A stretch of 64,000 bases of DNA from the human T2T-CHM13v2.0 reference genome, Homo sapiens: the NCBI RefSeq assembly GCF_009914755.1, contig NC_060926.1; one strand, given 5' to 3'. Below, piece after piece: positions 29,973 through 56,000 of this stretch. The first letter of the stretch is position 1; every line of letters begins with the position of its first letter. The position numbers and the translations under genes were made by a program. The notes under the pieces are model-generated. The model saw only the letters and a program-made list of their open reading frames with translations. It was not told the DNA's origin and searched no databases.

Positions 29973-31522
29973 GTAAGTACCCTGATTCTTTTTCAGATTC
30001 ATCTGACACAATTGATAAAAATAAAATTCCCAAGGGAAGTAACAATTTTAGTGTCCCCTTTTCCTATGTGCCATGGAACAAAGAGGGAACTTTGCACCAC
30101 CCAGAAACGTGTGTAATCAGTAAGGACTGTTTTTCCTTTCCATGTGAAGTTGCTGCTCATCATCATCATCATAAAATGTCATATTCTTTCTTGTGTTGTT
30201 TGTTGGAAAGAAGAGGAAAAGGGGTTCCCTTGACTTCTGATAGTCATTATTTTGAGAATGTTTATTTAAGGGCTCCAGCTGAGATTGAGGTGAAACAAAA
30301 GATGGATTCTTTGGAGGGTTATGAAAGAAATGAAGAAGGTTTACAGAAAGAATCATCTCAATGTTTTGAACTAACGGAGACTAGAAATAATTTAGTATCT
30401 TCAGAAGTGCAACCCAGATTCTTAGAAATACAGTATATTAGGAATGTTATAGCTCCTGATAATTCTGTAAAAGTTTCAGAAGCACATGTACTCTCCAGGG
30501 GACATAATACCTCTAAAATGGAGGCTTCTGGTTGGATTGTTATATCCAACTTGGATGAGATATCAGAACAACTGTATTTTCAAGAGGAAAGAAACCAAAA
30601 GGGAACTTCTCTTTTTGGTGAGAAAAATATTGATGCTGCTGAAAATATAGCCTTTGAGGCAGTTATTGCCTCTATTGAGCCTTCTAAGAAAGAGAGTACA
30701 GTAAATGAAATCCAAGCTGACATCAATAAATATTTAACAGATGACAGCCGAGAGAGAGCCAAAAAATCCAGATCTTTCTCCATTAAATTATAATGATGAA
30801 ACCTCTTTATTTGATAGGCTTAAACATCCATGCTATCAGTCTACTCCTGGGGTGTTTGAACCAGCAGCTTCAAAACCATTGTTGCATAAAAAGGGTAATA
30901 ATGATAGCTTCCTATACTGGCATCCAAATTTAAAATTACCCCCTAATGCTCTTCAGAAAATGTTCATTAAGCCACTTTGTGTTATTCCAGAGCTTAAGTC
31001 ATCTGCTTCTTTGAGTGAAAAATCTTACAACCAGGCTGTTGGTCTTGGCAAAACACAGTCAGCTTTATTTCAGTGTGATATAGGCAATGAACCATTTCTT
31101 CCCTTTGGGAAGATAAAGTCTGTTCCTTCTCTTGACCTTGCAGAGAAGATAGGATCTTCAGATGTTATTTATCATGTGAAAGTATTAACTTCAGAATCTT
31201 TGGTTTTACAAGATTTAAAGCAGCCAACCTTTGAAGAAGTTGCAGATTACTCAAACTTTAATTTGGGTAAGGATGTTAACTGTAGAAATGCCATTAAAGG
31301 TCCACCTGCAGCTGTAGGAAGCAGCTTTTCAGCAAACTTGGTGGCATGTGATGCAAAGTCACAAGGTGCTTGTACCATTGACCAGTGATGCATCATTAAT
31401 TGCAGTCGCCCAAGAGACATTGCTGAAAGCTGATATAGGCCAAGGTGAAAGTCCTTCGTGTGTGGGAGCTGAGCCTAGTTTTACTATACATACAATTATG
31501 CAAAATGACTCCTATTTTGTAG
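29973..31522 (+). other. ALMS1 intron 5 (1550 bp) with fossil coding capacity: three overlapping ORFs bridging exon 5 to exon 6
   Basis: ORFs 29771..30793 (exon 5 frame), 30741..31388 and 31348..31734 (exon 6 frame); no recognisable transposon sequence. Confidence 0.75.
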
Positions 31523-31623
31523 AGGGCCTGCAGGGGAAGGTTGAGTCTGACGTCATTACTCTGGATGGCCTAAATGAAAATGCTGTTGTATGCAGTGAAA
31601 GAGTTGCTGAACTACAAAGAAAG
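31523..31623 (+). CDS. ALMS1: ALMS1 coding exon 6 (101 bp, phase 1/0): (K)GLQGKVESDVITLDGLNENAVVCSERVAELQRK
   Basis: ttttgtag|AGGGCC acceptor, AAG|gtgaga donor; lies in ORF 31348..31734. Confidence 0.9.
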
Positions 31624-31726
31624 GTGAGACACAATAAAATGATAGTTGTAAGAAACGTGGCCTTTTTCAGTATTGTTTCAGGAAATGGTATTGTTTGTTT
31701 TTATTTTACTTTTTACTGTTTCCTGG

Positions 31727-31876
31727 GTACATGACCAATGTCATTTGACTGGTGAGTACATTGAGCTAGCAGCTTTAGAGAAATTTCATGGTGATCTAGA
31801 GATGCATGACAGCTCCCTGCACTGGCAGCCTACTTTACAACTACCATCTGAGAAGGAAAGCAATTTTGAAAAGCCT
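31727..31876 (+). other. Candidate fossil 150-bp in-frame ALMS1 exon with inactivated acceptor
   Basis: Long pyrimidine tract ending cctGG, 50 open codons in phase 0/0, CCT|gtaagt donor. Confidence 0.5.
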
Positions 31877-32564
31877 GTAAGTTTTTCTATTTGACATTTT
31901 TTTCTGGGCGGGGAGGGAATGTTTTATTTGAAAAATTTCCAAATTTTATTTGAAAATACTTTATTTGAAAAATTATATCCTTCAGTACCAGCTTGTAACT
32001 TGTACCTGTTCTTCATCTGATATCCAGGAATATGTTCCATTAGAGGTTGGTATAAAAGAAATGTTTATGTTTCATAGACTGTAAGACTTAGTTCTGTGGT
32101 GTCTTGGAAAAGGCATCCCATGGGGCTCCAGGCCTTTCATATTGAGGCAGCCTAACTCTTCCTAGTTGTGCCAGCAAGAGTCTTTAGACAGTGTTAAGAT
32201 TAGGCTTATTCATGGGAACATCCAAAAGCTTGTACTTTGAATGTTTCCCTCTGGTCTTCAATGCACAAGCCTTGAAACAGTCCCTGGAATATTTAAGTAT
32301 TTCTGTTTAGAAGCTCTTGAAAGACTTGACTTCAGAGGTGTCTTGAAAATTGTAAGACCCATGTTTGACCAGGAAGGATAATGAAGTGCTTAACGTCCAA
32401 ACTGGCCAGTGTCTCTTCAAAGGGAAGTATCTCCTTCCCAAATGAGCAACATACTAATGTATATACATGTCTCTTCCCTCTCTCTATTTATATCATTATT
32501 ACCATTGTGTGTGTGTGTACTAGAAACTGGCAACTCTAGGATGTCATAAAAATTTTATATCAGC

Positions 32565-35946: not shown

Positions 35947-37267
35947 CATATTATATATATGCATATATATTTATATATATTTATGTGTATGTATATATGT
36001 GTATATATATAGCCTGTACTTCAGAGAAGTTTCCTGTAGGAGTGAGGTAATTGAAAACTATGAACTTTGTGCTATGTGGAGAGCAGGGCTTCTTAGCAGC
36101 CTTATCATTTTGAGTTGGATAATTCTTTGTTATGGTGGGAGGCGTGTTTCCTGAGTATTGTAGGATGTTTTGCATCATCCATCCCTGGCCTCTATTCACT
36201 AGATACTAGTAACATCCCCTCCCCTCACAAGTTATGACAGCAAAAAATGTTTCCAGGCATTGTCAAATGTCCCTTGATGGGTACAAAATCTTCACAAGTT
36301 GAAAAGTAGAGAAACCTGTATGGGCAGTAGATGTAGATATAGAAATAGATATGGAATGTTCATTTCCACACTTCACATGGCTTCCTAAGAATGTTCATTA
36401 CTACACAATGAAAAATTGATGAAAGAGGATAGAAAAATTCATGCTTATGTACATTTTTAGACTTCATCCTGAGAAGATGTGACTGAAATAATCTTTTTAG
36501 GGAAATAAAGACAACCTAAAAATGATATATATTTTTATGTGAGGGTGCACTGTGAATTTGGTGAAAAGTTGTACATGTTTAGGTATTAATGTCACCAATA
36601 TTGGTTTCTAATTTCTTTTCTAGCAAGAACTTGTGACTTGATGAAACATTAGGAACTTCTTTTTGAGCAGTTACCCTTTACTTCACTACCAATTTATAGT
36701 TTCCACTACTTTTGTTTTAAGAAGTTTGAGGACTTATGCTTGTTGGTAACCGATCACAGTTATAGTTCTTTGATACTCTCATTTTTCTTCTAAACATTTG
36801 TGAGTTTCTAGAAAATATTCCTGTTTTCTTTTTCCTTCTTACTGTTTCTTGTCCACAGTGCACCTCTCTACCTTAAAAAGAAATACCTGAGCTTGTCCAG
36901 AATAATCCCATGGTTCAAATTCTGCGATGATCATAAGGAGCAAACTTCTGAGTAACAGAACACTTCTAAGCATACTATCTATAATATTTTATCTAGACAG
37001 ATTTCTAAGCCCTCAGGATGATTTAGTCTTCTAGAGTTGACCCAATAAAATATGACCTATATATGAATTCAGAAGGTTTGAGATTATGATCTTAAGTAAC
37101 TAGTATAACTTCTTAGTGTTCCTCTTTGTAAAAATGAAGGATTATTTTTAGCAGATGAGGTTTGAAATTAATATCTTATTTTCTTCATTTCTTCGTAGGT
37201 GGGTCATTCTAATCTGGGCATTAATGAGTCTTTTTCATTTTTATTGCCTTCATTTGTTCCACATAAG

Positions 37268-37361
37268 CCAACAAGAGAGTCGGAATATCACTCTTCAGAT
37301 CTCAGAATGTTGAGGATGTCTCCTGACACTGTGCCAAAGGCTCCTAAACATTTAAAAGCAG
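37268..37361 (+). CDS. ALMS1: ALMS1 coding exon 7 (94 bp, phase 0/1): PTRESEYHSSDLRMLRMSPDTVPKAPKHLKA(G)
   Basis: cataag|CCAACA acceptor (unusual AAG), CAG|gtacgt donor; peptide recalled from ALMS1; phases match exons 6 and 8. Confidence 0.88.
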
Positions 37362-53037: not shown

Positions 53038-56000
53038 GAGACACTTCTAAAGGAGGCATAGCTAAAGTTACTCAATCCAACTTGAAGTCAGGCATCACTA
53101 CCACTCCTGTTGATTCAGACATTGGATCTCATTTATCCTTGTCCCTTGAGGACCTGTCTCAGTTGGCTGTAAGTTCTCCTCTAGAAACTACTACTGGTCA
53201 ACACACTGATACTCTCAACCAAAAGACATTAGCAGATACTCATCTAACTGAAGAGACTCTGAAAGTCACAGCTATTCCTGAACCAGCTGACCAGAAGACT
53301 GCAACACCAACAGTACTCTCTAGTTCCCACTCACATAGGGGGAAGCCCAGCATTTTCTACCAGCAGGGCTTGCCAGACAGTCATCTAACTGAAGAGGCTT
53401 TGAAAGTTTCAGCTGCTCCTGGACTAGCTGACCAGACAACTGGCATGTCAACTCTAACCTCTACTTCCTACTCACATAGAGAGAAGCCTGGTACTTTTTA
53501 CCAACAAGAGTTACCAGAGAGTAACTTAACCGAAGAGCCTTTGGAAGTTTCAGCTGCTCCTGGCCCAGTGGAGCAGAAGACGGGAATACCTACAGTATCC
53601 TCTACATCCCACTCACATGGAGAGGACCTCCTCTTTTTCTATCGACAGACCTTGCCAGATGGTCATCTAACTGATCAGGCTCTGAAAGTCTCAGCTGTGT
53701 CTGGACCAGCTGACCAGAAGACTGGGACAGCAACAGTACTCTCTACTCCCCACTCACATAGAGAGAAGCCTGGTATTTTTTACCAACAAGAGTTTGCAGA
53801 CAGTCATCAAACTGAAGAGACTCTTACTAAAGTTTCAGCCACTCCTGGACCAGCTGACCAGAAGACTGAGATACCAGCAGTACAGTCTAGTTCTTACTCA
53901 CAAAGAGAAAAGCCTAGTATTTTGTACCCACAGGACTTAGCAGACAGTCATCTACCTGAAGAGGGTCTGAAAGTTTCAGCTGTTGCTGGACCAGCTGACC
54001 AGAAGACTGGCCTACCAACAGTACCCTCTAGTGCATACTCACACAGAGAGAAGCTCCTTGTTTTCTACCAACAGGCCTTGCTGGACAGCCATCTACCCGA
54101 AGAGGCTCTGAAAGTTTCAGCTGTTTCTGGACCAGCTGACGGAAAGACTGGGACACCAGCTGTAACCTCTACTTCCTCTGCGTCCTCTTCACTTGGAGAA
54201 AAGCCCAGTGCTTTCTATCAGCAGACCTTACCCAATAGTCATCTAACTGAAGAGGCTCTGAAAGTATCAATTGTTCCTGGACCAGGTGATCAGAAGACTG
54301 GGATACCCTCAGCACCATCTAGTTTCTACTCACACAGAGAGAAGCCCATTATTTTTTCCCAGCAGACCCTGCCAGACTTTCTTTTCCCTGAAGAAGCTCT
54401 GAAGGTTTCAGCTGTTTCTGTATTGGCTGCCCAGAAGACTGGGACACCAACAGTGTCCTCTAATTCTCACTCACATAGCGAGAAATCTAGTGTTTTCTAC
54501 CAGCAAGAGTTGCCAGACAGTGATCTACCTAGAGAATCTCTGAAAATGTCTGCTATTCCTGGACTGACTGACCAGAAGACTGTCCCAACACCAACAGTAC
54601 CTTCAGGTTCCTTCTCACATAGAGAGAAGCCCAGTATTTTCTATCAACAGGAGTGGCCAGATAGTTATGCAACTGAAAAGGCTCTGAAAGTTTCAACTGG
54701 CCCTGGACCAGCTGACCAGAAGACTGAGATACCAGCAGTACAGTCTAGTTCTTACCCACAGAGGGAGAAGCCTAGTGTTTTGTACCCACAGGTGTTATCA
54801 GACAGTCATCTACCTGAAGAGAGTCTGAAAGTTTCAGCCTTCCCTGGACCAGCTGACCAGATGACTGACACACCAGCAGTACCGTCTACTTTCTACTCAC
54901 AAAGAGAGAAGCCTGGTATTTTCTACCAACAGACCTTGCCAGAGAGTCATCTGCCTAAAGAGGCTCTGAAAATTTCAGTAGCTCCTGGACTAGCAGACCA
55001 GAAGACTGGCACACCAACTGTAACCTCAACTTCCTACTCACAACATAGAGAAAAGCCCAGCATTTTCCACCAGCAGGCCTTGCCAGGTACTCATATACCT
55101 GAAGAGGCTCAGAAAGTTTCAGCTGTTACTGGACCAGGTAACCAGAAGACTTGGATACCAAGAGTACTTTCTACCTTCTACTCACAAAGAGAGAAACCTG
55201 GTATTTTCTATCAACAGACCTTGCCAGGTAGTCACATACCTGAAGAGGCACAGAAAGTTTCACCTGTTCTTGGACCAGCTGACCAGAAGACTGGGACACC
55301 AACTCCAACCTCTGCTTCTTACTCACACACAGAGAAGCCTGGTATTTTCTACCAACAGGTCTTGCCAGATAATCATCCAACTGAAGAGGCTCTGAAAATT
55401 TCAGTTGCCTCTGAACCAGTTGACCAGACAACTGGCACACCAGCTGTAACCTCTACTTCCTACTCACAATATAGAGAGAAGCCCAGCATTTTCTACCAAC
55501 AGTCGTTGCCAAGTAGTCATCTAACTGAAGAGGCTAAGAATGTTTCAGCGGTTCCTGGACCAGCTGACCAGAAGACTGTGATACCAATTTTACCCTCTAC
55601 TTTCTACTCACACACAGAGAAGCCTGGTGTTTTCTACCAACAGGTCTTGCCACATAGTCATCCAACTGAAGAGGCTCTGAAAATTTCAGTTGCCTCTGAA
55701 CCAGTTGACCAGACAACTGGCACACCAACTGTAACCTCTACTTCTTACTCACAACATACAGAGAAGCCGAGTATTTTCTACCAACAGTCGTTGCCAGGTA
55801 GTCATCTAACTGAAGAGGCTAAGAACGTTTCAGCGGTTCCTGGACCAGGTGACCGGAAGACTGGGATACCAACTTTACCCTCTACTTTCTACTCACACAC
55901 AGAGAAGCCTGGTAGTTTCTACCAACAGGTCTTGCCACATAGTCATCTACCTGAAGAGGCTTTGGAAGTTTCAGTTGCTCCTGGACCAGTTGACCAGACG

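What the first reader, a model, noticed from the sequence alone, without database searches (positions are those of the whole stretch)
31727..31876. Fossil 150-bp exon in intron 6 with a dead acceptor (AG to GG)
Seen: 103 nt after the exon 6 donor, a long pyrimidine tract (ttttattttactttttactgtttcct) ends in GG where AG is expected. It is followed by exactly 50 open codons (VHDQCHLTGEYIELAALEKFHGDLEMHDSSLHWQPTLQLPSEKESNFEKP) and a CCT|gtaagt donor. Phase 0/0 fits between exon 6 (ends phase 0) and exon 7 (starts phase 0). Inference: a coding exon lost by a single acceptor mutation at 31725. Caveat: a competing CTG|gtgagt donor lies at 31751/31752.
Basis: partly seen in the sequence, partly recalled or inferred. 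Interest (0 to 1): 0.75.

Follow-up and report, generated by a model that had tools for sequence, protein, structure and literature searches.

The report
Dead ALMS1 exon, alive in other mammals
A 150-base stretch inside intron 6 of the human ALMS1 gene is the relic of a real coding exon that whales, cattle, horses, bats and carnivores still carry in their gene models, and in this human sequence it lacks the AG signal needed to splice it in.

Summary
In detail: window 31727-31876 is 50 open codons. A pyrimidine tract precedes it and ends in GG (31725-31726). A GTAAGT donor follows it. It lies in phase 0/0 between ALMS1 exons 6 and 7.

The sequence alone is not beyond chance. 49 of 3640 plus-strand stop-to-stop intervals reach 80 codons, and 4 of 19 GTAAGT sites follow 50 or more open codons.

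Homology settles it. The 50-mer matches ALMS1 models of other mammals (E 1e-18 to 9e-9). In all 120 listed full-length models, every named one laurasiatherian, it sits in frame between exon 6 and exon 7. It is always 50 residues and as conserved as its neighbours.

Three genomic ORFs from other animals read Gln where human reads Trp, which fits CAG against TGG.

So the fossil exon is real. Not shown: when the AG was lost, whether that loss caused the skipping, and whether human cells still use in-frame cryptic acceptors. Neighbouring relics (the inside of intron 5 and a 23-codon exon 7 extension) point to a wider trimming of this region.

The parts
31523..31623 (+). ALMS1 exon 6 (annotated). 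It ends in phase 0 and its donor is GTGAGA. It is 5-7 codons shorter than in Aotus and laurasiatherian models.
   Evidence: Hub annotation; phase computed; alignment gaps.
31680..31681 (+). Upstream AG after a short pyrimidine run. An exon from 31682 to 31876 would be 195 nt, in frame and without a stop, so this is a possible cryptic acceptor.
   Evidence: list of AGs with length, phase and stops. Use in cells not tested.
31699..31724 (+). Pyrimidine tract of the former 3' splice site.
   Evidence: It is 82% pyrimidine at -25..-4 against 55-77% for the 8 annotated acceptors. Its translation is conserved in the genomic ORFs P0005, P0006 and P0009.
31725..31726 (+). GG where the acceptor AG should be. 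This is the disabling lesion in this genome.
   Evidence: In this frame human reads Trp while P0005, P0006 and P0009 read Gln. The exon starts right after that codon in porpoise P0007 and in Aotus P0002 and P0003.
31727..31876 (+). Fossil exon ('6a'): 150 nt, 50 open codons, phase 0/0. It is the orthologue of a coding exon of ALMS1 in other mammals.
31752..31757 (+). Inner donor-like GTGAGT, lying inside conserved codons of the exon.
   Evidence: The same residues are kept in the models that splice at the downstream donor, so it is probably not used there (inference).
31877..31882 (+). Intact donor GTAAGT of the fossil exon.
   Evidence: 6 of 6 match. The read-through residues Val-Ser are kept in P0002, P0005, P0006 and P0009.
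37197..37267 (+). Intact upstream acceptor (AG at 37197-37198, tract 86% pyrimidine) and 23 open codons (37199-37267), in frame with exon 7. They are homologous to the first 23 residues of exon 7 in laurasiatherian models. They are not part of the annotated human exon 7, which starts at 37268.

Best explanation
Window 31727-31876 is the human orthologue of a real 150-nt, phase 0/0 coding exon of ALMS1, called '6a' here. The exon lies between exons 6 and 7.

In laurasiatherian gene models it encodes a conserved, acidic 50-residue segment, and it is spliced in two New World monkey models. In this human genome the 3' splice site reads GG instead of AG. The site therefore cannot be recognised at the ancestral boundary, and the exon 6 donor pairs with exon 7. 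Skipping costs exactly 50 codons and keeps the reading frame, so the loss could be tolerated.

Shown: homology, position, boundaries and phase; conservation in other mammals; GG and the intact donor in human.

Inferred: AG in the other species (from proteins); that the exon existed in the common ancestor of primates and Laurasiatheria; that GG is what keeps it out today.
For: (1): phmmer of the 50-mer against 1.84 billion representatives gave 8 hits with E up to 1e-3.
- P0002 and P0003 are named Aotus ALMS1-like.
- P0007 and P0008 are named ALMS1.
- P0004 holds ALMS1 exon 2 and exon 6 residues.
- P0005, P0006 and P0009 are unnamed short ORFs that align over the whole stretch.

(2): the exon 6-6a-7 region of porpoise P0007 found 252 proteins, of which 120 were listed. 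All 120 hold the exon. 116 are named, all laurasiatherian by my own knowledge of the taxa; 4 are unnamed.

(3): 40 of 40 distinct versions are exactly 50 residues. Mean pairwise identity is 0.78, equal to exon 6 (0.78) and exon 7 (0.76).

(4) Boundaries: the genomic ORF P0006 and the spliced porpoise protein P0007 are identical across the 50 residues. They part exactly at both ends.

(5) Aotus models P0002 and P0003 join the end of exon 6 directly to the first residue of the stretch.

(6): tblastn of six laurasiatherian proteins places the exon at 31727-31888, between exon 6 and 37199 onwards, at 51-61% identity without gaps.

(7): Gln in three other animals against Trp in human at the codon that carries the acceptor.
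Against: - No orthologous DNA was available, so AG elsewhere is inferred.
- The 120 listed models were ranked by score to a query that contains the exon. The 132 unlisted hits were not seen, so nothing is known here about rodents, other primates, Afrotheria or marsupials.
- All the models are computational predictions.
- The two Aotus models look unproductive. One reads through the donor into the intron. The other skips exon 7 and stops 7 codons into exon 8 in the wrong frame. P0004 is full of Alu-derived exons. In monkeys the exon may therefore already be marginal.
- Human and Aotus are 84% identical in 6a, against 74-84% in live exons 2, 3, 5 and 6. The rate of change therefore cannot date the death.
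- Human keeps in-frame AGs at 31680, 31755, 31764 and 31779, so inclusion by another acceptor is not excluded.
Confidence: 0.85

Rival explanations
1. The exon had already been dropped, or had become a minor non-productive alternative exon, in the ancestor of monkeys and apes for other reasons such as lost enhancers or competition from the exon 7 acceptor. On this reading AG to GG in the human line is a later, neutral hit on an exon that was already unused.
For: Human and Aotus share most of their differences from the laurasiatherian majority residue. Each is changed at 2 of 6 invariant columns, and at 9 and 8 of the 27 columns that are at least 90% conserved. The monkey models that hold the exon are truncated or frame-shifted. 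The whole neighbourhood has been remodelled: frame shifts inside intron 5, a shorter exon 6 and a shifted exon 7 acceptor.
Against: The monkey models do splice the exon at its ancestral boundaries. The frame is still open and free of indels in human and in both monkey versions. ALMS1 exons in this region all evolve fast, so shared changes need not mean decay.
Confidence: 0.3
2. The exon is not fully dead in human. It is included at a low level or in some tissues through an in-frame cryptic acceptor. The candidates are AG at 31680-31681 (195 nt) and AG at 31755-31756 (120 nt).
For:: both variants are multiples of 3 without stops. The donor is a perfect GTAAGT. The upstream AG follows a short pyrimidine run.
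Against: The RefSeq rows given for this window show no exon here, and only one of two transcripts is listed. The AG at 31755 is a GAG far from the tract.
Confidence: 0.1
3. It is a chance open frame flanked by splice-like motifs, with no history as an exon.
For: Open frames and GTAAGT sites of this kind are common in the window.
Against: E-values of 1e-18 to 9e-9 to ALMS1 proteins at the syntenic place between exons 6 and 7.
Confidence: 0.01

Closest known systems
The 50-codon exon between exons 6 and 7 in predicted ALMS1 of Laurasiatheria (for example Neophocaena P0007, Artibeus P0008, and the Tursiops, Bos, Sus, Equus, Canis and Panthera models)
   Same: Same position, length (150 nt), phase 0/0, boundaries and donor. 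Human matches the majority residue at 32 of 50 positions.
   Different: Human has GG instead of the acceptor AG, and the RefSeq rows given show no exon there. Human is changed at 2 of 6 invariant columns and at 9 of the 27 columns that are at least 90% conserved.
Aotus nancymaae 'ALMS1-like' Gnomon models (P0002, and P0003 isoform X2)
   Same: 84% identical over all 50 residues. Exon 6 is joined to the very first residue of the stretch. P0003 leaves the exon at the same donor.
   Different: In Aotus the stretch is spliced, which implies an AG there (inference). The models are short and look unproductive: one reads through the donor, the other skips exon 7 and meets an early stop.
Lineage-specific exon loss by splice-site mutation, often called exon death (general knowledge, no paper read for it here)
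   Same: A symmetric, frame-preserving exon is silenced by loss of a core splice dinucleotide and then persists as an open relic in the intron.
   Different: Here the loss sits in a disease gene. It lies next to other relics of lost coding sequence: the inside of intron 5 and the exon 7 extension.

Membership tests
Orthologue of the mammalian ALMS1 exon 6a | Significant sequence similarity to the exon in other species | tested here: met
   E 1.1e-18 to 9.3e-9; 51-61% identity, no gaps.
Orthologue of the mammalian ALMS1 exon 6a | Same place in the gene, between exon 6 and exon 7, on the same strand | tested here: met
   The tblastn order of hits along the window for six proteins.
Orthologue of the mammalian ALMS1 exon 6a | Same boundaries and phase | tested here: met
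   P0006 (genomic ORF) and P0007 (spliced) part exactly at both ends of the 50 residues. Phase 0/0 is.
Functional human cassette exon | AG at the 3' splice site | tested here: not met
   GG at 31725-31726.
Functional human cassette exon | GT donor with a good consensus | tested here: met
   GTAAGT at 31877.
Functional human cassette exon | Present in human transcripts | not testable with these tools
   It is not among the RefSeq exons given by the hub. No transcript or junction data were on hand.
Exonised repeat or transposon-derived pseudoexon | Overlap with a repeat, and no coding homologue in orthologous genes | tested here: not met
   It is not among the masked stretches of 100 bases or more that the hub lists. 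Coding homologues were found. No Pfam family matched the human 50-mer.

The most novel reading that the evidence does not exclude
The AG to GG change is recent, specific to apes or to humans. It would be the last step of a lineage-specific trimming of the ALMS1 N-terminal region. That trimming removed about 590 residues that laurasiatherian models still encode:
- the inside of the long exon 5, about 516 codons;
- exon 6a, 50 codons;
- the exon 7 extension, 23 codons.
On this reading a single G>A variant at T2T chr2:73,439,725 would restore a 50-residue in-frame insertion in a ciliopathy gene. Such a variant could exist in people and could change ALMS1 function or variant interpretation.
Probability: 0.2. 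Interest if true: 0.65.

Novelty: new member of a known kind. Interest (0 to 1): 0.5.

Why it matters
ALMS1 is the Alström syndrome gene, and its N-terminal half has no assigned function.

This result shows that the human protein lacks a 50-residue segment that many other mammals conserve. The cause is visible in the DNA, and one base would recreate the ancestral acceptor. That bears on three things:
- reading deep-intronic variants in intron 6;
- choosing animal models, because dog, pig, cattle and probably other models carry extra ALMS1 segments that human lacks;
- the evolutionary history of a gene for which selection in humans has been reported (recalled, not checked here).

It also shows that a reader working from sequence alone can find a true fossil exon, although the bare sequence signal here is at chance level.

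Tried and rejected
- a word-index search with the Aotus exon region among proteins of 393-2000 residues found nothing. Full-length ALMS1 is longer than that limit, so this says little.
- One search covers only 89-2000 residues and found only the two Aotus models.
- a scan of prokaryote genome contigs for contaminating mammalian DNA, hoped to show the acceptor bases. 32 pattern matches, none related.
- Pfam gave no family for P0001, P0005 or P0006, and only a chance-level match for P0009.
- the Atlas was closed, so the unnamed ORFs P0005 and P0009 could not be given a taxon. Their shared 2-codon deletion suggests a third clade (a guess: Glires), untested.
- Literature searches and passages read in PMC3137007, PMC6345566, PMC5511801, PMC9641963, PMC9691823 and PMC7617801 gave no mention of an exon or pseudoexon in ALMS1 intron 6. 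Subscription papers and supplements were not seen.
The conservation counts were then made from coordinates.
- I considered dating the loss from substitution rates and dropped it. Live ALMS1 exons differ between human and Aotus as much as the fossil does.

Full report
**The observation.**
- ALMS1 exon 6 ends at 31623.
- 103 nt later, a pyrimidine tract (31699-31724) ends in GG at 31725-31726.
- 31727-31876 is 50 codons without a stop (P0001).
- GTAAGT follows at 31877.
- A second donor-like GTGAGT lies at 31752.

Joining the annotated exons gives one open frame. It puts the end of exon 6 and the start of exon 7 both in phase 0, so a 150-nt exon would fit.

**Is it more than chance?** Not as bare sequence. 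The surrounding stop-to-stop frame is 80 codons (31652-31891). 49 of 3640 such plus-strand intervals in the window are at least that long. 4 of 19 plus-strand GTAAGT sites follow 50 or more open codons. The pyrimidine tract is good: 82% at -25..-4, against 55-77% for the eight annotated acceptors. A reader who accepts a non-AG 'acceptor' will still find such arrangements by chance.

**Homology.** A word-index search of the 50-mer among proteins of 89-2000 residues found two proteins. Both are Aotus nancymaae ALMS1-like models and both are 84% identical over all 50 residues. In both, the last residues of exon 6 are followed directly by the first residue of the stretch.
- P0002 reads through the donor into intron.
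It runs 7 residues into exon 8 in the wrong frame before a stop (match at 53038-53058).

An exhaustive phmmer search of 1.84 billion representatives found 8 hits:
- the two Aotus models;
- an Alu-rich primate-like model (P0004, 78%);
- three short genomic ORFs (P0005, P0006, P0009);
- two full-length ALMS1 proteins, P0007 (3574 aa, 56%, E 9.3e-9) and P0008 (4574 aa, 54%).

One search names P0007 as Neophocaena and P0008 as Artibeus. In both, the stretch lies in frame between exon 6 and exon 7 residues.

**Breadth and constraint.** Searching with the exon 6-6a-7 region of P0007 among proteins of 1965-6255 residues gave 252 hits, of which the best 120 were listed. All 120 hold the exon.

116 of them carry names: cetaceans, hippo, ruminants, pigs and peccary, camelids, horses, rhinoceros, bats, dogs, seals and cats. 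All are Laurasiatheria by my own knowledge. 4 are unnamed.

The list is ranked by score to a query that contains the exon. It therefore cannot show isoforms or clades without the exon, and the other 132 hits were not seen.

Among the 120 there are 40 distinct versions of the exon, and all are exactly 50 residues. Mean pairwise identity is 0.78, the same as exon 6 (0.78), the exon 7 extension (0.78) and exon 7 (0.76). The exon therefore behaves like its constitutive neighbours.

**Boundaries and the acceptor.** P0006 is an ORF called on genomic DNA. It is identical to porpoise P0007 over the 50 residues and parts from it exactly at both ends. That fixes the exon boundaries at the places matching human 31727 and 31876.

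In the frame of the exon, the codon before the boundary is Gln in P0005, P0006 and P0009, and Trp in human. This fits CAG against the human TGG, that is, A against G at 31725 (and C against T at 31724). After the exon all of them read Val-Ser, as does human, which fits a conserved GTAAGT.

P0005 and P0009 carry deletions of whole codons only. I saw no orthologous DNA, so the bases are inferred from residues.

**History.** The exon is present with the same boundaries in Laurasiatheria and in New World monkey models. The simplest reading is that it existed in their common ancestor and was disabled on the line to human after the split from New World monkeys. This is inference.

The data cannot say when, or whether AG to GG was the cause.
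- Human and Aotus share most of their departures from the laurasiatherian majority residue.
- The monkey models look unproductive.
- Human-Aotus identity is 84% in 6a, against 74-84% in live exons 2, 3, 5 and 6. Rates therefore give no clock.

Human is 51-61% identical to six laurasiatherian proteins over the exon, without a gap. By general knowledge of mammalian neutral divergence, this fits a sequence that was coding for most of that time.

**How it works now.** This is inferred from established splicing knowledge. Without AG the 3' splice site cannot be recognised, so the exon is not defined and the exon 6 donor is joined to exon 7. Skipping removes exactly 50 codons.

Human keeps in-frame AGs without stops before the donor, at 31680, 31755, 31764 and 31779. 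They would give exons of 195, 120, 111 and 96 nt. Low-level inclusion by a cryptic acceptor therefore cannot be excluded without transcript data.

**The neighbourhood.** The relic is not alone.
- Directly upstream of annotated exon 7, human keeps an intact acceptor (AG at 37197-37198, tract 86% pyrimidine) and 23 open codons (37199-37267). These are homologous to the first 23 residues of exon 7 in laurasiatherian models.
- Human exon 6 is 5-7 codons shorter than in Aotus and Laurasiatheria.
- Human intron 5 (29973-31522) aligns codon for codon with the inside of one long exon in six laurasiatherian proteins, at 58-73% identity. In human there are two frame shifts, near 30750-30784 and 31370-31379, and no stops inside the aligned pieces.
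- Passages of PMC6345566 say that mouse Alms1 exon 5 is 1546 nt long, and that an inner 5' splice site removes 1407 nt in Rbmxl2-null testis.
- 42 of the 120 models read through this long exon. The others use inner donors, including the human-like one.

**Literature.** Seven full-text searches and passages of six papers gave no mention of an exon or pseudoexon in ALMS1 intron 6 (searches; papers). PMC3137007 (passages) says that ALMS1 has 23 exons and several incompletely defined splice variants. Subscription journals and supplements were not searched.

**Verdict.** The kind of event is known, and this instance was not found in print. Interest is moderate.

Noticed in passing
window 29973-31522 (annotated intron 5): The whole intron is homologous to coding sequence. 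In six laurasiatherian ALMS1 models it is the inside of one long exon that spans human exon 5, intron 5 and exon 6. Human keeps three overlapping open frames of 435, 216 and 138 codons, with two frame shifts near 30750-30784 and 31370-31379. Passages of PMC6345566 report a 1546-nt exon 5 in mouse. This is about 516 codons of former coding sequence, now spliced out in human.
   Followed up: partly
window 37197-37267: An intact upstream acceptor and 23 in-frame open codons lie directly before annotated exon 7. They are homologous to a coding extension of exon 7 in laurasiatherian models. The annotated human acceptor at 37268 follows AAG. Possible alternative 3' splice site in human, untested.
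   Followed up: partly
window 31523-31623 (exon 6): Human exon 6 lacks 5-7 codons, an acidic Cys-Cys-containing stretch, that are present in the Aotus and laurasiatherian models. The deletion is in frame and lies on the human side of the split from New World monkeys.
   Followed up: partly
P0046-P0068 and other ruminant models (alignment): Ruminant ALMS1 models lack 7 residues at the end of exon 6, just before exon 6a. Other Laurasiatheria have them.
   Followed up: no
P0004: A 725-residue predicted protein made of ALMS1 exons 2, 6 and 6a interleaved with Alu-derived segments. It is probably an artefactual primate gene model, and it does splice 6a.
   Followed up: no
window 31680-31681: An AG after a short pyrimidine run would give a 195-nt, in-frame, stop-free version of the fossil exon.
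   Followed up: no
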